Below are positions 7,168 through 24,556 of a stretch of DNA of 64,000 nt, in pieces; the first letter of the stretch is position 1; each line of letters begins with the position of its first letter. The stretch spans positions 960,001 to 1,024,000 of the forward strand of contig OY771555.1 in assembly GCA_963674785.1 (NCBI GenBank), given 5' to 3'. A model generated the notes under the pieces. It was not told the DNA's origin. It saw nothing but the letters and a program-made list of their open reading frames with translations, and made no database searches. The DNA comes from Caldisericia bacterium (lineage in GTDB: Bacteria; Caldisericota; Caldisericia; JAAYUI01). Position numbers and translations under genes: made by a program.

Positions 7168-7298
7168 AAACCCAACCTCCAATCACCTATGATATTAAAA
7201 GGATAATCATGAAATGACAAGATTTGCATTTTTAGATGACTTTTTTCTACCAACTCTCGTATAAGTTGAAAAGGAAAAACTGGAAAGGAGAAGTTGCC

Positions 7299-8591
7299 AT
7301 GAATAAGAGCCAGTCTAATGTTTTAATTTTTGTGATTGTTGGTGTACTTTTGGTTTCACTCATACCGATAGGTTTTGCAGAATCACATTCTTTTATGGTT
7401 TTGGTTGGAGAAGGTTACAATATTGTTGATACAAATCAGGTAAATTGTTATGACAACAGTGGGATAATGAATAATCCCTCAAAAAGTTCCAATTTTTATG
7501 GTCAGGATGCTCAGCATGATGGGAATCAGCCAAGATATGAGTTAATTGATGATGATATTGTGCTTGACCTTGTAACAGGTCTTATGTGGCAGCGTGATCC
7601 TGATGAAAAGATGAGTTTTGATGATGCTGTTTCTGATGCTGATGATTTTGAGCTTGGTGGTTTTGATGACTGGAGACTTCCATCTATCAAAGAATTGTAC
7701 TCACTGATTGATTTTTCGGGCTATTGTGGACGTTCTGCGTCGGAATCAAAACCTTTTATTGATACAGATTATTTTGTGTTTGAGTTTGGTGATGAGAGCA
7801 AAGGTGAAAGACACATTGATTCACAGTATTGGTCATCAACTGAATATCTTTCTACCACAATGGGAGGGAACAAAACAACATTCGGCGTTAATTTTGCTGA
7901 TGGTCGAATAAAGGGATATCCGCAATCAGCACCGCAAGGAGCACCAGGAGGGGGTCAACCAGGTGGAGGTGGAGCTAGACCTAATTCGACTTCTGCCACA
8001 AAGAAACTCAATTTTGTAATGTATGTCCGAGGCAATATAGATTATGGAATCAATGATTTCAGAGATAATGATGACAGTACTATCACTGATAGAGCAACAG
8101 GTCTCATGTGGACAAAGGATGATAGCGGAAAAGGAATGATTTGGAAAGACGCACTTGCCTGGGTTCAGAAGAAAAACAAAGAGAACTATTTAGGCCATGA
8201 TGACTGGAGGCTTCCAAATATCAAGGAGCTTCAAAGCATTGTTGACTATTCAAGATGTCCTGCTGTAACAGACAGTGCGGCTATCGACCCAGTGTTTGAC
8301 ATCACAAAAGTCGGAGATAACTACCCTTATTTCTGGTCAAGCACAACACATCTTGATGGCCCAAAAGATAAGCAAGGGTCAACTGCTTGTTACATTGCTT
8401 TTGGCGAGGCAAGAGGATATATGGGGCCGCCAAATGGCGGAGACAAAAAGCTGATGGATGTTCATGGCGCAGGTGCTCAAAGGAGTGACCCAAAGACCGG
8501 TGATCCCGATGATTATCCAGAAGGACATGGCCCTCAGGGTGATGTCATTAATATCTATAATTTTGTAAGACTCGTAAGGGATGTTGACTGA
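7299..8591 (+). CDS. Secreted DUF1566 (Lcl C-terminal) two-domain protein
   Basis: Signal peptide; two copies of D..TGLMW...DDWRLP.IKEL.S..D...(Y/F)WSST with a Gly/Pro-rich insert; AAGGAG SD. Confidence 0.88.
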   Translation: MNKSQSNVLIFVIVGVLLVSLIPIGFAESHSFMVLVGEGYNIVDTNQVNCYDNSGIMNNPSKSSNFYGQDAQHDGNQPRYELIDDDIVLDLVTGLMWQRDPDEKMSFDDAVSDADDFELGGFDDWRLPSIKELYSLIDFSGYCGRSASESKPFIDTDYFVFEFGDESKGERHIDSQYWSSTEYLSTTMGGNKTTFGVNFADGRIKGYPQSAPQGAPGGGQPGGGGARPNSTSATKKLNFVMYVRGNIDYGINDFRDNDDSTITDRATGLMWTKDDSGKGMIWKDALAWVQKKNKENYLGHDDWRLPNIKELQSIVDYSRCPAVTDSAAIDPVFDITKVGDNYPYFWSSTTHLDGPKDKQGSTACYIAFGEARGYMGPPNGGDKKLMDVHGAGAQRSDPKTGDPDDYPEGHGPQGDVINIYNFVRLVRDVD

Positions 8592-12449: not shown

Positions 12450-13382
12450 TTAGTTATTTTTTATTTTCGATATTAACTTGTCTACAAGCAATGGATCATC
12501 TGACATTAAGGCTACAATATTTGATAAGCTCAGACAAAATTCTTTGACCTGATTCTTATTGACATTATGCCATATTGGAAGAATAAGATTTTCATCACTA
12601 TCAATATTTTTTGCGAAAATTGATTCGAATTCTGCTTCTCCCCAGCCTTTGTTGTTGAGGAAATTTGGTGAAAGAACCAAAATACAATACTTGGTTTCTC
12701 TTAAGCCTTTTTCAATGCTTTTCCTTAGATTATCTCCAACTCCAAGCGAGAAGTCATCGTACCATACTGGGCAAAACCTCTGGGTTAGTTTTAATGCTAA
12801 ATCGCTTACCAAGACCTCTTTGTCACGAGAGTCGTGAGATATAAAAGCAAGCGGACTTCGATCTTTTGTTGTTGCATCCAAGTAGTTTTTGTCTCTGATA
12901 ACTGGGTATAAACCTGCCTTTTGGCCTAATTCTAAAAGAAAGTCTCTTTTGTTTTTTTCAATATATTTCTCAACATAGATGAACACTCTTTTGTTAAATT
13001 GGGTATCAGATAGTTTTTGATGATCACCAAATCCTTGATGGCCAGAAAGTACATCAAAACCACCATCGGGAGAGTTTAATTCCAGAGGCTTTTCTAGTCC
13101 AATCCCCTCTACTCTAATCTTTTTTCTTCTAGAAATATCATCTTTTCCCAAATCACATTTTTGCACATAATCTGTTTTGTATATTAGGTCGATGTACTCA
13201 GCATAGTGTGGGGTTTCGGGTATATATGACTTAACTAGTCTTGTATTATTATTTATATCGAAACACACTTTTAAAATTGCTGAGGGCAAAGGATTTTTGT
13301 TGTTGTCATTGAAGTTGAGTATTAATCCTTGGGTAAAAAAATTGCTTAAATCTCTTTCAAACAAATCTTTAACAGTATTCAT
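12450..13382 (-). CDS. Protein with unknown N-terminal domain and C-terminal TIR domain
   Basis: AFISHDSRDK, VWYDDFSLGVGDNL..SIEKGL, VLSPNFL...W..AE (catalytic Glu position), ILPIWHNV. Confidence 0.88.
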   Translation of the reverse strand: MNTVKDLFERDLSNFFTQGLILNFNDNNKNPLPSAILKVCFDINNNTRLVKSYIPETPHYAEYIDLIYKTDYVQKCDLGKDDISRRKKIRVEGIGLEKPLELNSPDGGFDVLSGHQGFGDHQKLSDTQFNKRVFIYVEKYIEKNKRDFLLELGQKAGLYPVIRDKNYLDATTKDRSPLAFISHDSRDKEVLVSDLALKLTQRFCPVWYDDFSLGVGDNLRKSIEKGLRETKYCILVLSPNFLNNKGWGEAEFESIFAKNIDSDENLILPIWHNVNKNQVKEFCLSLSNIVALMSDDPLLVDKLISKIKNN

Positions 13383-13405
13383 GCTCCTCCAATATCAATC
13401 AAGTA

Positions 13406-14743
13406 TTACTCCCTAATCTTCCCCAGAAGTTTTGGAATATCTTGATATTCTTCCACCCACAAAACATTCAAACCCAGCTCATTAAAGTCCTGGGTTTCGA
13501 GGTTTTTGGAAATCTCAAAGACCTCTCCTGAAATGTCCGCGGAGTTTTTGTCTTTCATGATGAGATAATGTTTCTTTTCGTGGTTGATGTTTTTCCTGTT
13601 TGAAACATCAAGAAGTCTTCTGAGGTTTGGGTCTGTCAGACTGAGACCAAGGAAAAGACAGGTGTTTTGGCTGTATTTGATGAGCTGAATGATGTTTGAC
13701 CAGCTATAAACATCCATTGTTTTGTTGTGATATGAGTCCTCGGAAAAAACAAGTTCTGTATCTTCTGGAATCTCACCTGTTCGAGGAAGGTACCCGTGAA
13801 CATGATAGATAGGGAGTTCATTCGGGTTGAAACGTACTCCATCATTGTAGATTGGTTTGAAATCAACCCTCAATTTTTGAAGCTCCTCCTCAATTAAGCC
13901 ATCAAAATTGAAAGTGATTATTGAATCAAGTGAACAACCGTTTCTCCTGCTTGGTTTTGAGAGCATCGCAATCTCTCTGATGAGGTCACATGTGCCGTTA
14001 CCACCCTTATATAGTGCAGCTCGAAGCTCCTCATTGAAAAAACTACCGAAATGGTTTTTAAGACTTTTGCCAAGGATGATTGGGGATTGGTTGTAATAGC
14101 TCAGGAAATCAGAGGCTTTTATTGGATTTTCTATGTTTAGGGCAAGTTGAGAGATCATCCGGTCGAGAAGGTCTTCTATCAGGTTGTTCCAGGTGGGAAT
14201 TCCTGCGCTAACAGAAACCCCAGCTCCACATACAAGCGACAAAGCACCATCATGGAAGGCATCTTGAAGATTTTCAATATATAGGTCATTGATGTTGTCT
14301 GGTCTTTTGATGAGTATTTCAGGTGGTGGACTTGCTTGTTCTCCACTTTCGAGTTTGCTTGCAAATTTGGCGAATGTTTCAAGCTGTTTATCAAAGTTTT
14401 CAGATAGGTCGATATAGACATTTGAAAACATCATCGGTGGAATCTCTGACATATCGATTTTATCAAACGTCAGAACATAAAGCTTCCTTGAATCAAATGT
14501 TCCGCCGAAATAATTGAGATATGTCAACCATACCTCTTTTGTGTTCATGTGCATTGTCTCGGCACTCAGAACAAGAAGCACCATCTCTGCTTTTTCATAA
14601 ACATCAAGAATCTCAGATGGTGTTTCCTCGTCTGGGTTTACATCAGAGACCTTAAAAACAGTATGCCCAAAGGCCTGGAGTTTTTCGGCTACTTGGTCAA
14701 CCCTGGCTTCGTCCTTGTGACCGTATTCAATGAATATATTCAT
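13406..14743 (-). CDS. TIR-like (N-terminal) / SIR2-family (C-terminal) fusion protein
   Basis: N-terminal NIFIEYGHKD...LLVLS...IPP....YIDLS (TIR-like). C-terminal GAGVSVSAGIPTW, ITFNFD, YHVHGYLP, CLFLGLSLTDPNLRRLL (SIR2_2). Confidence 0.85.
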   Translation of the reverse strand: MNIFIEYGHKDEARVDQVAEKLQAFGHTVFKVSDVNPDEETPSEILDVYEKAEMVLLVLSAETMHMNTKEVWLTYLNYFGGTFDSRKLYVLTFDKIDMSEIPPMMFSNVYIDLSENFDKQLETFAKFASKLESGEQASPPPEILIKRPDNINDLYIENLQDAFHDGALSLVCGAGVSVSAGIPTWNNLIEDLLDRMISQLALNIENPIKASDFLSYYNQSPIILGKSLKNHFGSFFNEELRAALYKGGNGTCDLIREIAMLSKPSRRNGCSLDSIITFNFDGLIEEELQKLRVDFKPIYNDGVRFNPNELPIYHVHGYLPRTGEIPEDTELVFSEDSYHNKTMDVYSWSNIIQLIKYSQNTCLFLGLSLTDPNLRRLLDVSNRKNINHEKKHYLIMKDKNSADISGEVFEISKNLETQDFNELGLNVLWVEEYQDIPKLLGKIRE

Positions 14744-14749
14744 GTATTC

Positions 14750-14778
14750 ATTTTAGTCACTTGAACATACAATCGCAA
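14750..14778 (-). promoter_or_regulatory. Putative leaderless promoter of the TIR-SIR2/TIR operon
   Basis: TTGCGA-17nt-TAAAAT-6nt-ATG, overlapping the end of the GNAT gene. Confidence 0.6.
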
Positions 14779-15608
14779 ATGTCAGCGATTGGTTTATATC
14801 CAATTTTTTGGTAGATGCTATTTGATGTGGGGTTTGCAAGGTCTGTAAAGAGTGTACAGAATTTTTTCCCACTTTTTAAGATTTCTTTTGATAGTTCTGA
14901 GACAACCGCTGTTGCGTAACCTTTTCCTCTTTCATCAGGCGGAGTATAAACTGATGCGACACATTCGCTGTTTGGTGTTGGTCTTGTCCTTGCTGCCATT
15001 GAGACCGGTTTATCCTTTTCCCAGAGATAAAAGAAACCTGACTTTATCTTGTCTTCAAGGTGATTTGAATCATCGGGAGTATTGTTACTATTTTCTCCAA
15101 AGCAATCGATCATGAATTTCTTTGTCCAATCAAGACACAGGTCAAAGTCATCCATGGTTGCGACACGAAAATTCCCTTCTGGATAATCACGTTTTGCAAC
15201 CTCTGTGAGTTTGAATATTCTCATACTCATGACAATTTTTAATTTTCTGCCAGTTTTTTCACAGTAGTTTTTTGCAAAAGTTTCTGCAATATTTTTTTCT
15301 GCAATCACTCCTGGGACATACCAGTTTGAGTTTCCGATATTTTTTGTGAGTGTTTCAACTGCTTCTAATGAATTATTTCCACATGCAATGATCTGGATTT
15401 TAAATGGTGGAGTCATCATAACAACAAGCTCAATTCCTGAACTTGAAGATACTGTTGCCAGTAAAGGTTTTGTTCCGTAGTAGTTGGGATCAGCTTTAAG
15501 AAGTTCTGCAATTCCAAGCATCAAGCCGTTTTCCGCTTCACTTGCAAGAAGGATTTCTCTAGTAGTATCTAAAAAATTATTTATATTATTGTATTCTTTA
15601 TACTCCAT
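14757..15608 (-). CDS. GNAT family N-acetyltransferase
   Basis: VYTPPDERGKGYA acetyl-CoA motif; LFTDLANPTSNSIYQKIGY. Confidence 0.9.
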   Translation of the reverse strand: MEYKEYNNINNFLDTTREILLASEAENGLMLGIAELLKADPNYYGTKPLLATVSSSSGIELVVMMTPPFKIQIIACGNNSLEAVETLTKNIGNSNWYVPGVIAEKNIAETFAKNYCEKTGRKLKIVMSMRIFKLTEVAKRDYPEGNFRVATMDDFDLCLDWTKKFMIDCFGENSNNTPDDSNHLEDKIKSGFFYLWEKDKPVSMAARTRPTPNSECVASVYTPPDERGKGYATAVVSELSKEILKSGKKFCTLFTDLANPTSNSIYQKIGYKPIADICDCMFK

Positions 15609-15611
15609 GTT

Positions 15612-16565
15612 TTATTCCACCTTTTCTACATTGTCTGCCGGGAATAAGTCTGGGGTAGACAGATATCTCTCACCTGTATCATACATGAAACAAACTATTG
15701 TTTTTCCAACAAATTCTGGTCTTTCTGAAATCTGTCCCGCAACCCAAACAGATGCTCCTGATGTTGGCCCAACAAGAATACCCTCTTTTCTTGCAATTAA
15801 TCTTGCTGTTTCAAAGGCGACATCATTTTCTACAAGGATGATTTCATCAAGATTTTGTCTTGATCTTTTGAAGTTGTCTGTAATAAATCCTGGGCCAATA
15901 CCGATAAGTTTGTGAGGAGCTTGAGCTCCACCTGAATAGACTGGACTTGCTGCAGGCTCAAAACCAATGATTTTTATGTTTGGGTTTTTGCTTTTGAGAA
16001 ATCTTGATAGACCATCAAATGTCCCGCTTGTTCCAAGACCAATTATTGCAACATCGATGTTGCCGTTAGTTTGTTCCCAAATCTCTGGTCCTGTTGTTGT
16101 TTCGTGTGCTTTTCCGTTGTTTTGGTTTCCGTGTTGATTGAGGAAAAATGTCGTATTTGGATTTTTATCACAATACTTTATAGCTCTTTCTCTTGCACCT
16201 TTTGTGTGTTCAGCAGCGGGGGTAAGCATTACTTTTGCGCCATATGCACAAAGGATTTGCTGCCTCTCGACACTGCAAAGCTCACTCATGAAGATACGAG
16301 TTTTATAATCTAGCATCGCTCCCAAGCTTGCAATCGCAATTGCAGTATTACCACTGCTTGCCTCAACAACCTCTGTTTCTGAGGTTATTTTGCCCTCAGC
16401 CATCACTGTTTTTATCATTGATCTGACAGCTCTATCCTTTACTGATGTTGGATTGCAGCGTTCCATTTTAGCAAGGATTCTTGCTTTAGGATCAACAAAA
16501 ACTTTTGTCAGTTCAAAAAGTGGAGTATTTCCAATCAAGTCACATGCATCAGTAATGATATTCAT
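15612..16565 (-). CDS. cysK: Cysteine synthase (O-acetylserine sulfhydrylase family)
   Basis: IGNTPL, NPTSVKDR (PLP Lys), EASSGNTA, HETTTGPEIW, GTSGT, GIGPGF, DTGERYLST. Confidence 0.9.
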   Translation of the reverse strand: MNIITDACDLIGNTPLFELTKVFVDPKARILAKMERCNPTSVKDRAVRSMIKTVMAEGKITSETEVVEASSGNTAIAIASLGAMLDYKTRIFMSELCSVERQQILCAYGAKVMLTPAAEHTKGARERAIKYCDKNPNTTFFLNQHGNQNNGKAHETTTGPEIWEQTNGNIDVAIIGLGTSGTFDGLSRFLKSKNPNIKIIGFEPAASPVYSGGAQAPHKLIGIGPGFITDNFKRSRQNLDEIILVENDVAFETARLIARKEGILVGPTSGASVWVAGQISERPEFVGKTIVCFMYDTGERYLSTPDLFPADNVEKVE

Positions 16566-16679
16566 AAAGCTCTCCTTATTTTTTTGTAATTGGGAGAAGA
16601 GTCTAATGATAAAATGTCAAAATGCAAGCGGAATGGGCTGGTTTACAAATTCATATATTTTTATATACTTCTTCCTGGT

Positions 16680-19600
16680 ATGGAATCCTCTGACAATTTG
16701 ATAAAACTAGCTTTTTCAATGCAATCAAACAAGGGCGTTTATGCTCTCCTTCTTGGTTCTGGGATTTCAATTTCGGCAGGTATCCCAACAGGTTGGGGAG
16801 TTGTTTGCGACCTTATAAATAAACTCGCAAGACTGCATGGTGAAAACCCTGGCGAGAAGTGTTGGGAATGGTACGAAAAAAAGTTTGATAAACCAGCAGA
16901 CTATTCAGATCTCCTTGATTTCCTGGCAGATACTCCCACCCAAAGGGCGAAACTTCTAACATCATATTTTGAGCCAAATGATGAAGAAAAAAAGTCAGGT
17001 AAAAAACTTCCAACACCTGCACATAAGGCGATTGCAAAGCTAATTGAACAGAAGTTTGTGAAGGTCATTATTACAACAAATTTCGATAGACTTCTTGAAA
17101 AAGCACTTTCTGATTTGAATATCAATCCAAGAGTTGTTTCGTCTTCAGATGATATTGAAGGTCTACCATCTCTTGTTCATATGGAAAGACCACTAATAAT
17201 CAAAGTAAACGGTGATTATCTTGATTCAAGAATAAAAAATACTCCAGAGGAGCTTGAAAACTATACTTCTGAAATGAACCAACTTTTGACTGAGATTTTT
17301 TCAGAGTATGGATTGATAATATCTGGTTGGTCAGCAAGATATGATTCAGCCTTAATTGAGTGTTATGAGCAGGCTAAAAACACTGATTTTATAACGTGTT
17401 GGATAGATCCATTTGATTTATCAGAGCCAGCTTTGAAGCTTTTGTCATTGAGAAATGGAAGATTTATCAAAGAAAAAGCAGATATCTTTTTCCCAGAACT
17501 TGCAAAAAAGTTACGCTGCATTTATGAAAGATCAGATAAACTAGATGTTCCGAACAACCTTCCTGAGGGTCTTTCATCTTTTATTGGAAGAGAAAAAGAG
17601 ATTTCTGAAATCCTTGAGCTTGAAAAAAAACATAGGATGATAACTCTTGTTGGACCTGCAGGGGTTGGTAAAACAAGATTGGCAATTGAGATCGCAAAAA
17701 GACTTTCAAGCTCAAGCTATTCTAAAATATGGTTTATCAATCTTTCACTCGTTTCTGAAAAAATCCAAGTATATCAAATAATCTTTGAGGCATTGGGTAT
17801 TCGATTAGATTATACTGAGTCTTCTATTGATGCTATCATCAATGCAATAAAAAACACAAAGTGTTTGATAATTTTCGATAACTGTGAACAGGTAATAAAC
17901 ATTGTCTCACAGATTGCAAAAAAGCTTTTAAATGAAACAAAACAGCTAAAGATAATTGCAACAAGCAGGGAGACTCTAAACATTGAGATCGAAGCTAGGT
18001 GGTACACTCCTGTTATGGAATTCCCAGAACGATCTGATGAGGAATTCTCAAAAATTCTTGAATACTCAAGTATAAAGCTATTTTATGAACGAGCAAAAAC
18101 TGTATCATCAGATTTTGTCTTAGATGAAAACAATATCCGAAGTGTTGTCAATATTTGTATCAAACTTGATGGCTTACCGCTTGCAATCGAACTTGCATCA
18201 GCAAGAACAAAAGTTCTTTCTGTAAAACAAATTGAGAAAAAACTTGCAAGAAGATTCAAGCTATTAACAAAAAGTTTTAGTAGAGTCCCGGATAGACAAA
18301 AAACTCTTAAAGGTGCAATCGATTGGAGTTTTGATTTGTTATCTGATGATGAAAAAAAACTTCTTACTAGAGTATCTGTTTTTACTGGAGGATTTTCTCT
18401 GGAATCATCAGTTGCTGTTTTTACGGGAAGAATTTATAAGGGTGATACTGGGACAGATAAATATTTTGAATTTGATGAATTTGAAGTACTTGATCTGATA
18501 CAGCAATTAGTATCAAAATCTTTGATCATTTCAAAAAAATCAGTTGATGGGAATATCAGGTATAGCCTTCTCGAATCAATAAAGAAATATGGAATGGAAA
18601 AGCTAGAAACCTTTGGTGAAATGGTCTTGATCCATGACAGGCATTCCCGATGGTTTGATTTTTGGATAAACTCACACACAGAGAAACTCAGAACCAGTGA
18701 ACAATTCCTTTGGCAAAAGAAGATTGAATTTGAAAATGAAAACATCTTAGCGGCTCTGGATTACTTGTATGAGACAAAACGATTGACTAGATGTGCAAGG
18801 ATAATAAGTGGAGTTTCAATTTTCTGGGATTTGGTGTATTACAATGAACTTGGATACACTTGGACAAAAAAGGTTATTGAAACAGATCTTATTGATGATG
18901 ATGGACTTCTTGGTTTGATGTATAATTGTAATGGGGCTTTTTTGTTCAACTTAGGAAGGGACAATGAGGCAATTAGTTCTCATGAAAAAGCATTAAAGCT
19001 ATTTGAAAAAACAGGAAATAAGGAAAGAATTTCGATGGTTTCACAAAATCTTGCACTTTCCTATAAAAAAGTTGGAAAGATTTCAAAATGCGTTCCTTTG
19101 TTAGAAAAAGCAATAAAGGCAAGTATTGATGCAGAAAATGATTATTTCTTAGCTGTAAACAGAATGAATCTTGGCGATGTATATTTTTTCCAAGGTGACT
19201 TTGAGAAATCAATGGAACAATTTGAAAAGTCTATATCGATTTTTAGGAAGCTTTCAGATCAAAGAATGATTTTAATGGTTCAGAATAATTTTGCATCTGC
19301 ATACTATAACCTTCTAAATCTACCGAAGATGAAAGAAGTTCTTGATGAGATGTACCCGCTTGCTAAGTCAATCAGTTATACTGAATATGTTGATGTTTTG
19401 AGGCTGTTGTGTGATTATTATCTCATATTGGGAGAGTATGATAAAGCAACGAATCAATATAAACTGATGGAAAAGCTGAGAAAAGAAAATCCAACACAAT
19501 ACATTATCGAGCCGATCGAATATTCTTACTCTGCAATAATGATGGAAAAGGGTAATTTCGATGATGCATATGAAATATATGTAAATGCTGGACTTTTTGA

Positions 19601-20120
19601 TATGACAAAAGATTTCAGTATCAAAGAACTAATGCTGATGCTCTATTATTCAATTTCTATGAAGGATAAAAAGTTAATAGGTGAAATTATTGAAAAAATA
19701 TCAACCGATAAGAAAATAATCCCATCAAAACTAGATTTAATAAGGTTTGTTGGTTACAAAGCGACCTTTAATTATCTAGATGGAAAACTGTCTGAAGCGC
19801 TAGTTACCCTAAAAAAAGTAATCTTTGACTTTTATAAAATTGAGGCATATTTTGATCTTATCAAAATACTCGAGATGACGTCAATTGTTTTTTGTGAATT
19901 GGGTGATTTTTCGGTTTCTGCAATGATTCTTGGAAAAATGAAACAATTAAGATCTTTTTTCGGAACCCCACTTTCTCCAGCGAGGAAACCAGATATTGAA
20001 AAGTTAAAAGCTGATTTGAACCATGAAATCGGAGATGATTTTGAAAAAATGATGGTCAAAGGTTCAAAGCTTACGACTGAGGAAATAATTAAAGTTGTAG
20101 GTTGTGATTTAGTGAACTGA
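16680..20120 (+). CDS. SIR2-STAND NTPase (NB-ARC-like)-TPR protein, paralog 1 (NLR/Avs-like)
   Basis: SIR2 GSGISISAGIPTGW, ITTNFD; NLP..LSSFIGRE; Walker A GPAGVGKT; Walker B LIIFDNCE; LDGLPLAIELA; winged helix; C-terminal TPRs. Start at ATG 16680 by alignment to the paralog. Confidence 0.88.
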   Translation: MESSDNLIKLAFSMQSNKGVYALLLGSGISISAGIPTGWGVVCDLINKLARLHGENPGEKCWEWYEKKFDKPADYSDLLDFLADTPTQRAKLLTSYFEPNDEEKKSGKKLPTPAHKAIAKLIEQKFVKVIITTNFDRLLEKALSDLNINPRVVSSSDDIEGLPSLVHMERPLIIKVNGDYLDSRIKNTPEELENYTSEMNQLLTEIFSEYGLIISGWSARYDSALIECYEQAKNTDFITCWIDPFDLSEPALKLLSLRNGRFIKEKADIFFPELAKKLRCIYERSDKLDVPNNLPEGLSSFIGREKEISEILELEKKHRMITLVGPAGVGKTRLAIEIAKRLSSSSYSKIWFINLSLVSEKIQVYQIIFEALGIRLDYTESSIDAIINAIKNTKCLIIFDNCEQVINIVSQIAKKLLNETKQLKIIATSRETLNIEIEARWYTPVMEFPERSDEEFSKILEYSSIKLFYERAKTVSSDFVLDENNIRSVVNICIKLDGLPLAIELASARTKVLSVKQIEKKLARRFKLLTKSFSRVPDRQKTLKGAIDWSFDLLSDDEKKLLTRVSVFTGGFSLESSVAVFTGRIYKGDTGTDKYFEFDEFEVLDLIQQLVSKSLIISKKSVDGNIRYSLLESIKKYGMEKLETFGEMVLIHDRHSRWFDFWINSHTEKLRTSEQFLWQKKIEFENENILAALDYLYETKRLTRCARIISGVSIFWDLVYYNELGYTWTKKVIETDLIDDDGLLGLMYNCNGAFLFNLGRDNEAISSHEKALKLFEKTGNKERISMVSQNLALSYKKVGKISKCVPLLEKAIKASIDAENDYFLAVNRMNLGDVYFFQGDFEKSMEQFEKSISIFRKLSDQRMILMVQNNFASAYYNLLNLPKMKEVLDEMYPLAKSISYTEYVDVLRLLCDYYLILGEYDKATNQYKLMEKLRKENPTQYIIEPIEYSYSAIMMEKGNFDDAYEIYVNAGLFDMTKDFSIKELMLMLYYSISMKDKKLIGEIIEKISTDKKIIPSKLDLIRFVGYKATFNYLDGKLSEALVTLKKVIFDFYKIEAYFDLIKILEMTSIVFCELGDFSVSAMILGKMKQLRSFFGTPLSPARKPDIEKLKADLNHEIGDDFEKMMVKGSKLTTEEIIKVVGCDLVN
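16701..17300 (+). repeat. 600-bp near-identical direct repeat of 20196..20795 (SIR2-coding region)
   Basis: 200 codons with identical amino acids; only synonymous differences seen by eye. Confidence 0.9.
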
Positions 20121-20174
20121 TAAAAAACCAAGTCAGTTTACTTTTTTCTACATTTTCATATACTCTCACCTAGT

Positions 20175-23100
20175 ATGGAAGTCTCTGATAATACTATAAA
20201 ACTAGCATTTTCTATGCAATCGAATAAGGGTGTGTATGCTCTTCTGCTTGGTTCAGGAATATCAATATCAGCAGGCATCCCAACAGGTTGGGGAGTTGTT
20301 TGTGACCTTATAAATAAACTCGCAAGGCTGCATGGTGAAAACCCTGGCGAGAAATGCTGGGAATGGTACGAAAAAAAGTTTGACAAACCCGCAGACTATT
20401 CAGACCTCCTTGATTTCTTGGCAGATACTCCCACCCAAAGAGCAAAACTACTGACTTCATACTTTGAGCCAAATGATGAAGAAAAAAAGTCAGGCAAAAA
20501 ACTTCCAACACCTGCACACAAGGCGATTGCAAAACTTATTGAGCAGAAGTTTGTGAAGGTCATTATTACAACAAATTTCGATAGGCTTCTTGAAAAAGCA
20601 CTTTCTGATTTAAATATCAATCCAAGAGTTGTTTCGTCTTCAGATGATATTGAAGGTCTGCCATCTCTTGTTCATATGGAAAGACCACTAATAATCAAAG
20701 TAAACGGTGATTATCTTGATTCAAGAATAAAAAATACTCCAGAGGAGCTTGAAAACTATACTTCTGAAATGAACCAACTTTTGACTGAGATTTTTTTAAA
20801 GTATGGGTTGATACTCTCTGGATGGTCAGGCAAATATGATACTGCACTCATTGAGTGTTATAAAAATGGTATCAATAAAGAGTTTTCAACCTATTGGGTT
20901 GACCCTGGTGGATTATCAGACTCTGCAAGTGAACTTTTGTCTTTGAGGGATGGAAAGTTTGTAAAAGCAACATCAGATGAGTTTTTCTCTGATCTTGAAC
21001 ATAAGCTCATGAATAATGAGGTTCAAGAGACAAAAGAGACCTATGAGGTTCGAAATAATCTACCTGAAGACCTTTCATCATTCATTGGACGAAAAAAAGA
21101 GATTGATGAGATTAAATCTATTCTTGAAGATAAAAGACTGATCACAATCCTTGGTATCGGTGGTTCTGGAAAAACAAGACTTGTAATTGAGGCCGCAAAA
21201 AGAAACACTGATAAATTCACAGATGGTATCTGTTTTGTTAGTCTTTCTGATATTTCTGAAAAAATCCAGTTGGTTCAATCTATTTCTACATTTTTGAATG
21301 TTCAAGGTGACTCCGAAAAATCTCCGACTGAATTGATAATTGATCATATTTCAGATAAAAAAATGCTTTTAATCCTTGATAGTTGTGAGCTTGTTTCATC
21401 TTCGCTTGCAAAGATTTCAGAAAGGTTTTTGGAGAATTGCCCAAACTTGAGAATTATTGCTACAACAACTGAATCACTCGAGATCAAAGGTGAAGAGGTT
21501 TGGAGAATTCCATCACTTGTAGTTCCACAATCGAATTCAATTAAACTTGATGATTTTGAAAAATTTTCAGCAGTAAAATTATTTGTTGAAAGAGCAAGAT
21601 CTGTTGCAACTGATTTTACCCTTTCAGAAGAAAATTCGGACGCAGTTTGTGATATTGTGAGAAGACTCGATGGTTTACCGCTAGCAATTGAACTTGCTGC
21701 TGCAAGGGTGAAGGTTCTTTCACCAGACCAGATAAACCAAAAATTGAATAAAAGATTTAAGCTTTTGACAAAGGGTTCAAGAGATGCAACCGATAGACAG
21801 AAAACCCTTCGGAAAACAATTGATTGGAGTTATGATCTCCTCTCTTCTGATGAGAGAACATTGCTCAATAGGATGTCAGTTTTTTCTGAAGGATTCACAT
21901 TAGAGTCTTCAACCGCTATTGCCACAGGTGACTTTGAGTTCAAGTTAGATGACAAAGTACTCGCTGATTCAATTTCTGAAGATGCTGAAACTTTTGATGA
22001 TGATTTTTGTGAATTTGATGAGTTTGAAATCCTTGACCTTATTGATGGGCTTCACTCAAAATCACTTATTGTTACAAATAAAACTGCTAAAGGTGAAACA
22101 AGATATTATCTCCTAAACACGATAAGAGAATATGCAAAAGAAAAGCTTGTTGAGTCAGGCGAGTATGAATTTATAAGAAAAAGATACCTTAGGTGGTTCG
22201 CCACATGGGTAAACACCAATAGAAATAATCTGAGAGGTAAAGACCAAGCACTTTGGTTAGCAAGGTTTGAGTCAGAAAATAAAAATGTTCTTTCTGCAAT
22301 TGATTTTGCCTTCGAGTCAAATCAAGATGGATACTTGATAATCCTGACTTCCTCGATGTGCATTTTTTGGAATGTTATGGGTTATCATAGATTGGGTTTG
22401 GAAAAGACAAAGCAGGCGATTGAAAGAATCAATATCAAATCAAAAACAGCGGGTTCGCTTTGTTTGAATTCAGGTGTGTTTGCACATTGGCTTGGCGATT
22501 TTGATGAGGCTATCAGGGTTACAAATAAATCAATTGGAATACTTGAAGAAATTGATGCTCAGGATTCATTACTTTTTTCCTATCAGAATTTGGCAATCTA
22601 TTATCAGGGGAATGGAAATATAGATAAGAGCTTTGAGTTATATGAAAAAACAATAAAGCTCAGCACAGAATTGAAACAATACCATATGCTTGCGACAAGT
22701 CAGATGAATCTTGGTTTGAGTTATTTTGATGTTGGAAGATATGATGATGCCTTGAGAGAATTGAAGACCTCTCTTGCTTCATTTGAAAAGATCTCCGACT
22801 ATAGGATGATTTGTTGGACAAATAGATTAATATCATCGATCCATATTGACAGATTGAATCTCAAAGAAGCTGAAAGGTTTATTTCCGAGGCTATGAAATA
22901 TGGTGGAAAGTCTGGGGTTAACCTCGAGATAATTCTAACTTTGAGGAAAAAGGCTCAGTTTAATGTTCTGATTGGGAAATATGATGAAGCGATTGAATGC
23001 AATAATAAAATAAAACAGCTTTCAAAAAAACAGCTTCAAGATCTTGGAATGGATTATTATTATGATAGCTCAATCGAGATTTACATGTCGATGAATGATA

Positions 23101-23666
23101 TGGAAAAAACAAAGTATTATTTAGAAAAACTTGGTCATCTGAAAGAAGATGAAAAGTTTGGTTACAGAGAAAATGATATTAGCATATTGCTTACACTTGC
23201 CAAATATTACATTTTCAATCGAGAGCTAAATAACGCAAAACTTATTTTCGATAAAATTGATGAAAGAAAAAAAGTTCTTACAAAATCGTCTTTCATAAAT
23301 AGATATATGTTATATAAGGGGATGTATCTCCATTTGAAAAATGATTTTATGGAATCGACAGAATGCCTGCTAGGTGTTTTAAAAAACCATATGGAGTCGA
23401 AATCCATGTTACAGGTAATTGTTTCGCTGGAATTTCTATCCATGAGCTTTGGAAATATGAAGAAATATAAGGAAGCATCGCTTATTATCGGCAAAGCAAT
23501 TCAATTGAGAAATAAGTTTGGTGTCCCAAATGACCCCCTTATTAAACCTTACATTGATGAAATTATTGCCAACTTAAGCGAGTTTTCCGGAGCAACTTTT
23601 GAAAAATATGGAGATCGCGGAGCAAACATGTCCCTTGATGAGATTATCGAGTTTATATCTCAATAA
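20175..23666 (+). CDS. SIR2-STAND NTPase-TPR protein, paralog 2
   Basis: Same SIR2 domain; Walker A GIGGSGKT; Walker B LLILDSCE; LDGLPLAIELAAAR; diverged TPR region. Confidence 0.9.
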   Translation: MEVSDNTIKLAFSMQSNKGVYALLLGSGISISAGIPTGWGVVCDLINKLARLHGENPGEKCWEWYEKKFDKPADYSDLLDFLADTPTQRAKLLTSYFEPNDEEKKSGKKLPTPAHKAIAKLIEQKFVKVIITTNFDRLLEKALSDLNINPRVVSSSDDIEGLPSLVHMERPLIIKVNGDYLDSRIKNTPEELENYTSEMNQLLTEIFLKYGLILSGWSGKYDTALIECYKNGINKEFSTYWVDPGGLSDSASELLSLRDGKFVKATSDEFFSDLEHKLMNNEVQETKETYEVRNNLPEDLSSFIGRKKEIDEIKSILEDKRLITILGIGGSGKTRLVIEAAKRNTDKFTDGICFVSLSDISEKIQLVQSISTFLNVQGDSEKSPTELIIDHISDKKMLLILDSCELVSSSLAKISERFLENCPNLRIIATTTESLEIKGEEVWRIPSLVVPQSNSIKLDDFEKFSAVKLFVERARSVATDFTLSEENSDAVCDIVRRLDGLPLAIELAAARVKVLSPDQINQKLNKRFKLLTKGSRDATDRQKTLRKTIDWSYDLLSSDERTLLNRMSVFSEGFTLESSTAIATGDFEFKLDDKVLADSISEDAETFDDDFCEFDEFEILDLIDGLHSKSLIVTNKTAKGETRYYLLNTIREYAKEKLVESGEYEFIRKRYLRWFATWVNTNRNNLRGKDQALWLARFESENKNVLSAIDFAFESNQDGYLIILTSSMCIFWNVMGYHRLGLEKTKQAIERINIKSKTAGSLCLNSGVFAHWLGDFDEAIRVTNKSIGILEEIDAQDSLLFSYQNLAIYYQGNGNIDKSFELYEKTIKLSTELKQYHMLATSQMNLGLSYFDVGRYDDALRELKTSLASFEKISDYRMICWTNRLISSIHIDRLNLKEAERFISEAMKYGGKSGVNLEIILTLRKKAQFNVLIGKYDEAIECNNKIKQLSKKQLQDLGMDYYYDSSIEIYMSMNDMEKTKYYLEKLGHLKEDEKFGYRENDISILLTLAKYYIFNRELNNAKLIFDKIDERKKVLTKSSFINRYMLYKGMYLHLKNDFMESTECLLGVLKNHMESKSMLQVIVSLEFLSMSFGNMKKYKEASLIIGKAIQLRNKFGVPNDPLIKPYIDEIIANLSEFSGATFEKYGDRGANMSLDEIIEFISQ

Positions 23667-24556
23667 TTGATTCTGGAAATCTTTTTAAATCTGACCTGTG
23701 ATATTACAACTCCTGAAAGAACAACAACAATTCCAACCATATTAAAAATTGTCAGTTTTTCACCAAGCACTATGAATGCCGCAATTGCAGTAAAAATCGG
23801 GATTGTATTTGTGAAAAGGTTTGCGGTTGACATCCCAAGTTCCTGGATTGCAGAAATGAAGAAGATATAGGCAAGTGATGAGCCGAGAACCGCCAGTAGA
23901 AGAAATGGCATGATGGTACCTGAAACAAATCCAATTTTAAGAATATGTCTCAGATCAGTTACCAGGAATAGTGGAATGAACATTATTGAACCGATAAGAT
24001 TCTGCCAGAAGAGGATTGAAAAAACATTGTATCGATCCTTGAGTTTATATATGAGTACGGTGTAGATAATTGCTGAAAGAATAGCCAAGAATAAAAGAAA
24101 AACACCAAATGGGTGTGCTGAAAATGAAAGATCATTCTTCATGACTACCATCAAAACCCCGAAAAATGAGATTATCATTCCCAAAACAAAAAATCTTGTG
24201 AGTTTTTCTTTGAAGAAAATATGTCCCGCAATTGGCGTAAAAAGCGGAATCATTGCGATGATTACTGCTGTGACAGTTGTGGAGACATACATCAATCCGT
24301 AGTTTTCGCAGATGAAATATAAAAATGGTTGGAAGAGTGACAAAAGCACGAACTGCCAAAAATCTTCTTTTCGAATCTTTTGCAGTTGTTTTAGAAACAG
24401 ATTGAATATAAACATGAAAAAAACTGAAATGATGAGTCTTACAGTTATGATTGTGATCGGATTGTAGAACTCAAGAATCTGTTTTGTCCAAATAAAGGTG
24501 AGTCCCCAGAAAACCATTGCCAGAGAAAGATTTATGTATACAAGAGCTTTTTTCAT
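23660..24556 (-). CDS. DMT/EamA family transporter
   Basis: About 10 TM helices, FWG..F, P.FT....FFKE, PIFT...FIVLGE. Confidence 0.9.
   Translation of the reverse strand: MKKALVYINLSLAMVFWGLTFIWTKQILEFYNPITIITVRLIISVFFMFIFNLFLKQLQKIRKEDFWQFVLLSLFQPFLYFICENYGLMYVSTTVTAVIIAMIPLFTPIAGHIFFKEKLTRFFVLGMIISFFGVLMVVMKNDLSFSAHPFGVFLLFLAILSAIIYTVLIYKLKDRYNVFSILFWQNLIGSIMFIPLFLVTDLRHILKIGFVSGTIMPFLLLAVLGSSLAYIFFISAIQELGMSTANLFTNTIPIFTAIAAFIVLGEKLTIFNMVGIVVVLSGVVISQVRFKKISRINY

What the first reader, a model, noticed from the sequence alone, without database searches (positions are those of the whole stretch)
12450..23666. Candidate undescribed NLR-like immune relay: two SIR2-STAND-TPR sensors, a TIR-SIR2 fusion and an X-TIR protein
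Seen: within 11 kb, four genes carry five TIR/SIR2 domains that form a chain of shared domain types: [SIR2-STAND-TPR]x2, [TIR-SIR2], [X-TIR]. The STAND SIR2s read KVNG, the fusion SIR2 reads HVHG with a degenerate TIR, and the last TIR is canonical. Known: STAND-TPR proteins (Avs) sense phage proteins and oligomerise an N-terminal effector; SIR2 and TIR are NADase or signalling effectors in Thoeris, DSR and Avs. The STAND here resembles the AfsR/LuxR-regulator type (NLP..LSSFIGR, DNCE, LDGLPLAIELA) but carries SIR2 instead of a DNA-binding domain. Inference: sensors recruit the fusion through SIR2-SIR2 contacts and the X-TIR through TIR-TIR contacts, like a sensor-adaptor-effector inflammasome. 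Caveat: the two halves are divergent and separated by GNAT and cysK.
Basis: partly seen in the sequence, partly recalled or inferred. Interest (0 to 1): 0.85.

Follow-up and report, generated by a model that had tools for sequence, protein, structure and literature searches.

The report
Two separate NAD-based phage-defence modules
The five TIR and SIR2 domains are really there, but they look like two unrelated anti-phage modules sitting in one variable hotspot (a Thoeris-like TIR-SIR2 plus TIR gene pair, and two Avs5-like SIR2-STAND-TPR sensors), not one four-gene immune relay.

Summary
Observation confirmed. Four genes in 11.2 kb carry every TIR_2 match (2 of 2) and every SIR2_2 match (3 of 3) of this 2.23-Mb genome, probably Caldisericia.

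The four-gene relay reading is not supported.
- None of 80 genome loci holding a TIR-SIR2 relative has a SIR2-STAND relative within 10 kb.
- None of 80 metagenome loci with the STAND-type SIR2 has an X-TIR or a true TIR-SIR2.
- A same-genus relative keeps one SIR2-STAND at the same site with neither TIR gene found in its genome.

Left module: the TIR-SIR2 protein has a ThsA-type SIR2 but no SLOG domain, and its TIR lacks the family's conserved Glu. X-TIR is a ThsB/AbTIR-like TIR with that Glu. Cassettes of TIR-SIR2 plus ThsB-type genes recur in 4 of 54 well-flanked loci, two of them with full-length PADLOC ThsB matches. I read it as a SLOG-less Thoeris variant (about 50%); the rival is two independent single-gene systems.

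Right module: two paralogues built like Avs5 on an AfsR-type STAND. Their SPARSA-like SIR2 has Asn at the catalytic His position. The first 200 SIR2 codons differ by 36 synonymous changes and none that alter the protein.

Both are new variants of known kinds; moderate interest.

The parts
12450..13382 (-). X-TIR: a conserved alpha/beta N-terminal domain of about 170 aa plus a C-terminal TIR with catalytic-type Glu E251. It resembles ThsB and AbTIR.
   Evidence: Pfam TIR_2 3.9e-15. PADLOC PDC-S66 1.7e-42 and ThsB1 1.4e-25, over the TIR only. PDB phmmer hits 7uxr, AbTIR 7uwg/8g83, PdTIR and TcpB at 1e-24 to 7e-20. The family alignment has E251 invariant. The model has mean pLDDT 82.
13406..14743 (-). 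TIR-SIR2 fusion: an N-terminal TIR lacking the family's conserved Glu, then a ThsA-type SIR2 (GAGVS, FNFD, YHVHG intact). No SLOG domain. It lies 23 nt upstream of X-TIR on the same strand.
   Evidence: Pfam. PADLOC ThsA1 4.2e-25, SIR2 part only. PDB phmmer hits ThsA chains. Foldseek's best hits are the ThsA structures 8bto, 7uxt, 6lhx and 8wc0. Glu column: 67 of 70 have E, the window protein does not.
14757..15608 (-). GNAT acetyltransferase. An intervening gene, not part of either module.
   Evidence: Pfam FR47 and Acetyltransf_1. No PADLOC hit. A 46% homologue sits in the same hotspot of relative G001 without any TIR genes. No match in 80 TIR-SIR2 loci.
15612..16565 (-). cysK-like cysteine synthase. 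An intervening housekeeping-type gene.
   Evidence: PALP 8e-61. TIGR01139 cysK scores 311 bits, below its cut-off of 351. It is the only copy in the genome at E<=1e-5. No PADLOC hit.
16680..20120 (+). STAND-A: SIR2 (SPARSA/PDC-S65-like, KVNG) - NB-ARC - TPR. Probable start ATG 16680; the ORF opens at TTG 16590.
   Evidence: Pfam SIR2_2, NB-ARC and TPR. PDC-S65 1.2e-122 over the SIR2 only. Start inferred.
20175..23666 (+). STAND-B: paralogue of STAND-A (48% identity) and orthologue of the single SIR2-STAND of relative G003.
   Evidence: Synteny with G003. By segment, B is closer to the G003 protein than A is in 9 of the 10 segments after the shared head, and equal in the other.
16641..17300 (+). 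Repeated head, first copy (second copy at 20136-20795): a promoter-like element plus the first 207 SIR2 codons. Protein-identical over 200 codons, with 36 synonymous codon differences.

Best explanation
The 11 kb is a variable defence hotspot lying between a conserved Lcl_C-domain gene (7236-8591) and an EamA transporter gene (23660-24556). It holds two independent NAD-targeting anti-phage modules.

Module 1 (12450-14743, minus strand) is a two-gene operon that works like Thoeris. X-TIR senses infection through its N-terminal domain, and its catalytically competent TIR turns on the neighbouring TIR-SIR2. The signal is either a cyclic ADP-ribose-type product or direct TIR-TIR assembly on the fusion's catalytically dead TIR. 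The fusion's ThsA-type SIR2 then depletes NAD+ and aborts the infection.

Module 2 (16680-23666, plus strand) is two paralogous single-protein sensors that work like Avs5. Their diverged TPR ends each bind a different phage protein, the AfsR-type STAND ATPase oligomerises, and the SIR2 heads are brought together.

Shown: domain content, family relations, lack of co-occurrence of the two modules, synteny.
Inferred: every biochemical step, the coupling within module 1, and the NADase activity of the Asn-bearing SIR2.
For: Independence of the two modules:
- 0 of 80 loci in one direction and 0 of 80 in the other show co-occurrence.
- G003 has one SIR2-STAND at the syntenic site, and neither TIR gene was found in its 94%-complete genome.
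- G001 has a GNAT gene plus a 157-aa SIR2 remnant there.
- The intervening cysK-like gene is the genome's only copy.

Module 1:
- The SIR2 is closest to ThsA by sequence (7uxt 6e-10) and by fold (8bto 2.4e-10).
- The X-TIR TIR is closest to AbTIR, 7uxr and TcpB and hits a PADLOC ThsB1 model.
- The two genes are 23 nt apart on one strand.
- Neither gene was found in 30 relatives, and X-TIR-type TIR was found in only 1 of 92 other genomes of the phylum. This fits joint acquisition.
- Cassettes of TIR-SIR2 plus separate TIR genes recur in distant taxa, set among metabolic genes: L037 (Halomonas, 22-nt gap), L015 (Autumnicola, three TIR genes), L021 (Duganella), L076.
- The neighbours in L015 and L021 match the PADLOC ThsB model PDLC00424 over its full length (3e-110 and 9e-125). 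Those in L037 and L015 match PDC-S66 over its full length.
- The window fusion has lost the TIR Glu and sits on a branch of 1.83 against a median of 0.26.

Module 2:
- The architecture is SIR2 + NB-ARC + TPR.
- Avs5 is a Sir2-STAND whose Sir2 hydrolyses NAD+ upon phage-protein sensing through its C-terminal repeats (PMC12931631, passages).
- Walker A (GxxGxGKT) and the hhhhD Walker B motif are present in both proteins.
Against: Coupling within module 1:
- 50 of the 54 TIR-SIR2 loci with at least 3 kb on both sides have no separate TIR gene. No neighbour is conserved across the 80 loci. The family therefore normally works alone.
- The four fusions with TIR neighbours keep their own Glu and are scattered over the tree.
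- X-TIR relatives also occur alone. G008 has a DUF1883-TIR beside a type I R-M system, and PDC-S66 is listed by PADLOC as a single-gene candidate.
- There is no SLOG domain, the known receptor for the Thoeris signal.

Module 2:
- The residue aligned with the catalytic His186 of GsSir2 is Asn. H186A abolishes NADase activity there (PMC10781750).
- No PADLOC Avs model matched at E<=0.01.
- No experiment exists for any of the four proteins.
Confidence: 0.6

Rival explanations
1. Four independent single-gene abortive-infection systems that merely share a hotspot. X-TIR acts alone as a sensor-plus-TIR NADase. TIR-SIR2 acts alone, as it does in most genomes. Each STAND acts alone.
For: - TIR-SIR2 has no separate TIR neighbour in 50 of 54 well-flanked loci and no conserved neighbour at all.
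- Single-protein TIR systems protect E. coli (TIR-V, VI and IX; PMC11350192, passages).
- The relative of X-TIR in G008 stands without any SIR2 gene.
- PDC-S66 is a single-gene candidate in PADLOC.
Against: - The window fusion lacks the TIR Glu that 67 of 70 relatives keep. If the TIR is needed for self-activation, this copy should depend on another TIR.
- The gap is 23 nt on the same strand.
- Full-length ThsB-model proteins lie next to TIR-SIR2 in L015 and L021, with no canonical ThsA in those loci.
Confidence: 0.3
2. One reading: one four-gene relay. The STAND sensors recruit TIR-SIR2 through SIR2-SIR2 contacts, and TIR-SIR2 recruits X-TIR through TIR-TIR contacts.
For: Physical proximity. 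All TIR and SIR2 domains of the genome lie in 11 kb. The shared domain types form a chain on paper.
Against: - No co-occurrence in 160 loci searched from both sides.
- G003 keeps a STAND without either TIR gene.
- The two SIR2 domains belong to different subfamilies, SPARSA-like versus ThsA-like.
- The halves are divergently transcribed and separated by the genome's only cysK-like gene and a GNAT gene.
Confidence: 0.04
3. The STAND pair is not immune. These are AfsR/MalT-like signalling ATPases whose SIR2 head, lacking the catalytic His, is a regulatory or NAD-binding domain.
For: - The best solved relative of the STAND-TPR part is the regulator AfsR.
- The same chassis carries HTH, cyclase and kinase heads.
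- Asn stands at the His186 position.
Against: - The SIR2 head is the PDC-S65 / SPARSA defence type (1e-122).
- N and H alternate among close relatives (N 43, H 34, S 2 of 80 loci), so Asn is a tolerated state of an otherwise fully conserved pocket.
- The site is a hypervariable hotspot with presence, absence and a remnant among genus-mates.
- The paralogues have sharply diverged sensor ends.
Confidence: 0.05

Closest known systems
Type I Thoeris (ThsA SIR2-SLOG plus ThsB TIR)
   Same: A ThsA-type SIR2 by sequence and fold. An adjacent, co-directional TIR protein with a variable N-terminal domain that hits ThsB models. Elsewhere, TIR-SIR2 is followed by one to three diverse ThsB-type genes, as Thoeris loci are.
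   Different: There is no SLOG (STALD) signal-binding domain: the protein ends about 40 aa after the SIR2. In its place, at the other end, is a TIR domain, here without the conserved Glu. Most family members have no ThsB partner.
Avs5 / AVAST type 5 (Sir2-STAND)
   Same: N-terminal SIR2, central STAND NTPase and C-terminal TPR-like repeat sensor in one protein (PMC12931631).
   Different: The STAND is of the NB-ARC/AfsR type. The SIR2 is SPARSA/PDC-S65-like with Asn at the catalytic His position. No PADLOC Avs model and no listed PDB Avs5 chain matched. It is present as a tandem pair with protein-identical SIR2 heads.
PADLOC candidates PDC-S65 and PDC-S66 (untested; guilt-by-embedding; bioRxiv 10.1101/2024.01.29.577857)
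   Same: The STAND SIR2 heads match PDC-S65 at 1e-122. The X-TIR TIR matches PDC-S66 at 1.7e-42.
   Different: Only the SIR2 half of the PDC-S65 model (11-296 of 592) and only the TIR part of the PDC-S66 model (151-265 of 282) are matched. The rest of each window protein is something else. The definitions sit in supplementary tables that I could not see.
SPARSA Sir2-APAZ (GsSir2, PDB 8jkz)
   Same: It is the closest solved SIR2 to the STAND heads (3e-15). N142 of TTNFD is conserved.
   Different: There is no APAZ domain and no Argonaute. His186 is replaced by Asn.
AbTIR / TcpB / PdTIR family of bacterial TIR proteins
   Same: These are the closest solved TIR domains to X-TIR (1e-24 to 7e-20), with the same plan: an N-terminal domain followed by a C-terminal TIR.
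   Different: The N-terminal domain of X-TIR is a predicted alpha/beta domain shared by a family of about 285 aa. It is not the coiled coil seen in the full PDC-S66 members L037 and L015.

Membership tests
Type I Thoeris | ThsA-type SIR2 NADase domain with the Asn and His catalytic pair | tested here: met
   PADLOC ThsA1 4.2e-25. phmmer hits ThsA chains. Foldseek's best hits are ThsA structures. N279 and H316 are invariant in 70 relatives.
Type I Thoeris | SLOG (STALD) signal-binding domain C-terminal to the SIR2 in ThsA | tested here: not met
   The matches cover only model positions 105-275 of 478 and ThsA residues up to about 298. The protein ends at residue 445, right after the SIR2.
Type I Thoeris | Adjacent ThsB: a TIR protein with the catalytic Glu | tested here: met
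   X-TIR lies 23 nt downstream. ThsB1 PDLC00417 matches at 1.4e-25, TIR part only. E251 is invariant.
Type I Thoeris | ThsB-made cyclic ADP-ribose isomer activates ThsA | not testable with these tools
   This needs biochemistry.
Avs5 (AVAST type 5) | Architecture of SIR2 - STAND NTPase - C-terminal repeats in one protein | tested here: met
   SIR2_2, NB-ARC and TPR_12 are present in both proteins.
Avs5 (AVAST type 5) | Sequence membership in the Avs5 family | tested here: inconclusive
   No PADLOC Avs model matched at E<=0.01. No Avs5 chain appears among the 34 phmmer matches or the best 60 of 246 profile matches in the PDB. I did not verify that Avs5 models and chains are in those libraries.
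Avs5 (AVAST type 5) | SIR2 with the canonical catalytic His | tested here: not met
   N177 (STAND-B numbering) aligns with GsSir2 H186. It is invariant in 18 SIR2-STAND homologues.
PDC-S66 (PADLOC candidate) | Full-length match to the 282-position model | tested here: not met
   X-TIR matches positions 151-265 only. True members (the neighbours in L037 and L015) match 1-280.
PDC-S65 (PADLOC candidate) | Full-length match to the 592-position model | tested here: not met
   Only positions 11-296 (the SIR2 half) are matched. The remainder of the window proteins is NB-ARC-TPR.
SARP/AfsR regulators | N-terminal SARP/BTAD DNA-binding domain on the STAND-TPR | tested here: not met
   The STAND-TPR part resembles AfsR (5e-32), but the N-terminus is SIR2 and no Trans_reg_C or BTAD match was found.

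The most novel reading that the evidence does not exclude
TIR-SIR2 is a SLOG-less Thoeris effector in which a TIR domain, catalytically dead in this genome, has become the receiver. The partner TIR protein switches on the SIR2 NADase in one of two ways: by loading its cyclic ADP-ribose-type product into the dead TIR's NAD pocket, or by nucleating a mixed TIR filament. That would be a new way of receiving a TIR signal in bacteria. It would also explain a family of more than 1,700 protein clusters spread over most bacterial phyla and some archaea, for which my searches found no experiment.

A second, smaller point concerns the two STAND paralogues. They keep protein-identical SIR2 heads (36 synonymous changes, 0 replacement changes), which may mean the heads co-assemble into one mixed effector platform fed by two different sensors.
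Probability: 0.2. Interest if true: 0.7.

Novelty: new variant of a known kind. Interest (0 to 1): 0.45.

Why it matters
The four-gene 'inflammasome-like relay' would have been a new kind of bacterial immunity, and the comparative data speak against it. What remains is still useful.

1. TIR-SIR2 is a large, widely transferred family: 1,742 clusters with E<=0.001 among 8,000 scored candidates, and 241 confirmed stretches in 185,579 species genomes. Full-text searches for 'TIR-SIR2' and 'SIR2-TIR' returned no paper. Its occasional pairing with bona fide ThsB-type genes gives a direct test of how a SIR2 NADase can be controlled without a SLOG domain.

2. The STAND pair shows that the Avs5 plan has been built independently on an AfsR-type STAND with a SPARSA-type SIR2.

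3. The 'catalytic' His of that SIR2 subfamily alternates freely with Asn in nature. That questions how general the Asn-His dyad is.

Tried and rejected
- **Complex prediction** on full-length TIR-SIR2 plus X-TIR, each with its alignment, gave no verdict: score 0.00 against a mark of 0.32, and the controls were not run. I count it neither for nor against binding.
- **ESM Atlas** on the X domain (residues 1-175) gave no usable hit.
- **VIA-align wide search** of the X-TIR model returned only TIR-domain matches (model range 174-310).
- **Viral contigs** gave 13 loci. Only one has a full TIR-SIR2 and none has an X-TIR, so they added nothing on pairing.
- **The promoter and terminator scan** is at chance level (43 promoter-like sites against 41.1 expected, 10 terminator-like against 7.3). 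I use it only for the shared element upstream of both STAND genes.
- **A link between loss of the fused TIR's Glu and presence of a separate TIR gene** was considered and rejected. The four other fusions with TIR neighbours keep Glu. The two others without Glu (L039 Q, L042 H) showed no separate TIR gene in the ORF clustering.
- **cysK and GNAT as members of the system** were considered and rejected. There are no PADLOC hits, GNAT matches 0 of 80 TIR-SIR2 loci, a cysK-like gene lies near only 1 of 80 (L015), and this cysK is the genome's only copy.
- **The careful tree search** did not finish and my script also failed on an overlapping group label. The tree quoted is the quick one, and the window's long branch makes its placement unsure.
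- **Rows dropped.** The 70-row alignment and tree hold the window protein plus 69 of the 80 loci, namely those whose ORF was 400-520 aa. Only the best 80 of 241 genome stretches, and 80 of at least 490 metagenome stretches, were available to me.
- **Selection bias.** The metagenome loci were partly picked by the pattern K[VL]NGDYLD, which inflates the Asn count.
- **Papers.**
  - Passages seen through 'find': PMC12931631, PMC10781750, bioRxiv 10.1101/2024.01.29.577857, PMC11350192.
  - 10.1101/2025.01.08.631726 had no relevant passage.
  - PMC11897194 was seen only as a search listing with the start of its abstract.
  - That AbTIR-family TIRs make cyclic ADP-ribose isomers, and that the SLOG domain of ThsA binds the signal, is recalled knowledge and was not read here.

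Full report
**What is there**

Six co-linear genes fill window 12450-23666. On the minus strand, in order of transcription:
- cysK-like, 16565 to 15612;
- GNAT, 15608 to 14757;
- TIR-SIR2, 14743 to 13406;
- X-TIR, 13382 to 12450.

The gaps between them are 3, 13 and 23 nt.

On the plus strand, divergently transcribed, are STAND-A (ORF from 16590, probable start 16680, to 20120) and STAND-B (20175 to 23666).

- TIR_2 in X-TIR at residues 180-275;
- TIR_2 (3-122) plus SIR2_2 (274-402) in the fusion;
- SIR2_2 plus NB-ARC plus TPR in both STAND proteins.

A whole-genome scan shows that these are the only TIR_2 matches (2 of 2) and the only SIR2_2 matches (3 of 3) in the 2,233,174-base genome. The clustering is real. 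The closest named homologues of the STAND proteins come from Caldisericia MAGs, so the organism is probably a member of that group.

**Test of the four-gene relay**

I tested it from both sides.

*From the TIR-SIR2 side.* A profile of 23 family members found 241 confirmed stretches in one-genome-per-species contigs, and I could hold the best 80 with up to 10 kb of flank. tblastn with the window proteins gave no SIR2-STAND relative in any of the 80. Two loci had unrelated STAND or TPR pieces. There was no GNAT match, and a cysK-like gene lay in one locus. Clustering all neighbouring ORFs within 5 kb found no family conserved across the loci. The largest cluster was a gene of about 200 aa downstream in 8 loci, mostly Clostridia plus one Methanobrevibacter MAG.

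*From the STAND side.* A profile of 18 SIR2-STAND proteins retrieved 80 metagenome loci carrying this SIR2 type, 10 of them with the STAND. None has X-TIR. The three TIR-SIR2 'hits' are matches of about 25% identity to other SIR2 genes.

*Among 30 relatives.* TIR-SIR2 was found in 0, X-TIR-type TIR in 1 (G008), and a full SIR2-STAND in 1 (G003). Across the phylum, X-TIR-type TIR was found in 1 of 92 other genomes.

*Synteny.*
- In G003 the single SIR2-STAND (50% identical to B, 44% to A) sits between the EamA gene and the homologue of window gene 7236-8591. A kinase-STAND-TPR gene lies beside it, and neither TIR gene was found in that genome.
- In G001 the same interval holds a 302-aa gene, a GNAT homologue and a 157-aa remnant of the SIR2 head.

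The interval between the Lcl_C-domain gene and EamA is therefore a hypervariable hotspot, and the two halves come and go separately.

The two SIR2 types are also different subfamilies. The fusion's SIR2 is ThsA-like. The STANDs' SIR2 is SPARSA/PDC-S65-like. I therefore reject the relay (about 4%).

**The left pair**

TIR-SIR2 belongs to a large and uniform family.
- 1,742 clusters had E<=0.001 among the 8,000 candidates scored. Members are about 440-450 aa long and about 40% identical to the window protein.
- They come from Pseudomonadota, Bacteroidota, Bacillota, Myxococcota, Planctomycetota and others, and from Methanospirillum and Methanobrevibacter.

The SIR2 motifs (GAGVS, FNFD, YHVHG) are invariant and present in the window protein. 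By sequence and by predicted fold, the SIR2 is nearest to ThsA of Thoeris, followed by KomC, SIR2/HerA and DSR2, all of them defence NADases.

There is no SLOG domain, because the protein ends just after the SIR2.

The N-terminal TIR of the family keeps the conserved Glu in 67 of 70 aligned proteins. The window protein does not. It also departs from the family's conserved N-terminal strand motif and sits on a branch of 1.83 against a median of 0.26.

X-TIR has a TIR closest to 7uxr, AbTIR, PdTIR and TcpB, with an invariant Glu at E251. It also has a conserved alpha/beta N-terminal domain shared by a family of about 285 aa, including one homologue that is 69% identical over its full length. PADLOC's PDC-S66 and ThsB1 models match its TIR part only.

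**Are the two left genes a unit?**

*For:*
- The gap is 23 nt on one strand.
- Neither gene was found in the 30 relatives searched, and X-TIR-type TIR was found in only 1 of 92 other genomes of the phylum.
- The fused TIR is dead.
- The arrangement recurs in distant taxa. L037 (Halomonas) has a full-length PDC-S66 protein 22 nt upstream of TIR-SIR2, between panE-like and SDR genes. L015 (Autumnicola) has TIR-SIR2 followed by three TIR genes, among peptidase, PALP and aminotransferase genes. L021 (Duganella) has a TIR gene just downstream. L076 has one 2 kb downstream.
- The neighbours in L015 and L021 match PADLOC's ThsB model PDLC00424 end to end (3e-110 and 9e-125), with no canonical ThsA in those loci.

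This is the Thoeris pattern: one SIR2 effector with one or more diverse TIR sensors.

*Against:*
- Only 4 of 54 well-flanked loci show it.
- The four are scattered on the tree, and all keep their own Glu.
- X-TIR-like proteins also occur alone.

I put the coupled, Thoeris-like reading at about one half and the independent single-gene reading at about one third.

**The right pair**

The STAND-TPR part is AfsR-like: a family profile hits AfsR at 5e-32. In other proteins the same chassis carries adenylate cyclase, LuxR, SARP, XRE, kinase or TIR heads.

About 30 clusters among the best 120 hits share the SIR2-STAND plan. The plan is that of Avs5, whose Sir2 hydrolyses NAD+ after its C-terminal repeats sense a phage protein (PMC12931631). 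However, no Avs model or chain matched. I therefore say it works like Avs5 without filing it as a member.

One caveat concerns the catalytic His. The residue aligned with GsSir2 His186 is Asn, and the H186A mutant of GsSir2 lacks NADase activity (PMC10781750). In the wider SIR2 subfamily this position reads N in 43, H in 34 and S in 2 of 80 loci, with no motif found in 1. Those counts are biased by the search pattern. Among the genome's relatives, N, H and C all occur. Asn therefore looks like a tolerated state rather than decay.

**An unexplained detail**

STAND-A and STAND-B are 48% identical overall. Codons 8-207 of the SIR2 head, however, encode the same 200 residues with 36 synonymous codon differences and no replacement: dS 0.33, dN 0 over 465 non-synonymous sites. 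The G003 orthologue differs from both at 47 of those 200 residues (dN 0.167).

Downstream of the head, B is closer to the G003 protein than A is in nine of the ten 100-column segments and equal in the tenth. The head was therefore homogenised between the paralogues after the split from G003. Since then it has accepted only silent changes.

I see three possible causes and cannot separate them:
- strong constraint on the head;
- selection for identical heads, for example for co-assembly;
- selection on the DNA against recombination between the tandem copies.

**Verdict**

The locus is a defence hotspot with two modules that are new variants of known kinds: a SLOG-less Thoeris-like pair and Avs5-like sensors on an AfsR-type STAND. 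None of the four proteins, and by my searches no member of the TIR-SIR2 family, has been tested ('TIR-SIR2' and 'SIR2-TIR': 0 papers each; 'PDC-S65': 0 papers). PDC entries are untested candidates according to their authors.

Noticed in passing
window 16701-17300 and 20196-20795: The first 200 aligned SIR2 codons of STAND-A and STAND-B are protein-identical but differ at 36 codons, all synonymously (dS 0.33, dN 0). The same stretch differs at 47 of 200 residues from the orthologue in relative G003.
   Followed up: partly
L100-L179 (metagenome loci); L090-L095 (relatives): In the PDC-S65/SPARSA-like SIR2 subfamily, the position of the catalytic His (GsSir2 H186) alternates between N (43 loci), H (34) and S (2), with C in one relative. 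The surrounding motif K-x-[NHSC]-G-D-Y stays fixed. The counts are biased by the search pattern.
   Followed up: partly
L180 14187-17753 (relative G003): A protein kinase-STAND-TPR protein (1188 aa) lies two genes from the SIR2-STAND in G003, with the Lcl_C-domain gene between them. Different heads on STAND-TPR sensors sit close together in one hotspot.
   Followed up: no
L203 1845-2318 (relative G001): A 157-aa ORF whose matched stretch (53 residues) is 68% identical to the start of the SIR2 head. It appears to be a remnant of a SIR2-STAND gene at the same hotspot, next to a GNAT homologue.
   Followed up: partly
L057, L063, L065, L069, L074, L077 and two more loci: In a sub-clade of mostly Clostridia loci plus one Methanobrevibacter MAG, TIR-SIR2 is followed by a conserved gene of 98-226 aa with unknown function (8 of 80 loci). 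It could be a partner or an antitoxin-like gene.
   Followed up: no
L015 5502-10311 (Autumnicola edwardsiae): TIR-SIR2 is followed by three TIR genes: a full-length ThsB PDLC00424 type, a full-length PDC-S66 type, and a 110-aa TIR that runs into an overlapping 362-aa ORF (possibly a frameshifted fusion). This is the most Thoeris-like of the loci.
   Followed up: partly
L181 274-9315 (relative G008): A DUF1883-TIR protein lies at the end of a type I restriction-modification cluster (HsdR, HsdM, HsdS), with a DUF5131 gene in between. This fits the 'embedded gene' origin of the PADLOC PDC candidates.
   Followed up: no
G000:C1:1478143-1478817: A third, weak NB-ARC match (20.5 bits, below the cut-off) in a 1236-aa open frame elsewhere in the genome. 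It may be another STAND protein.
   Followed up: no
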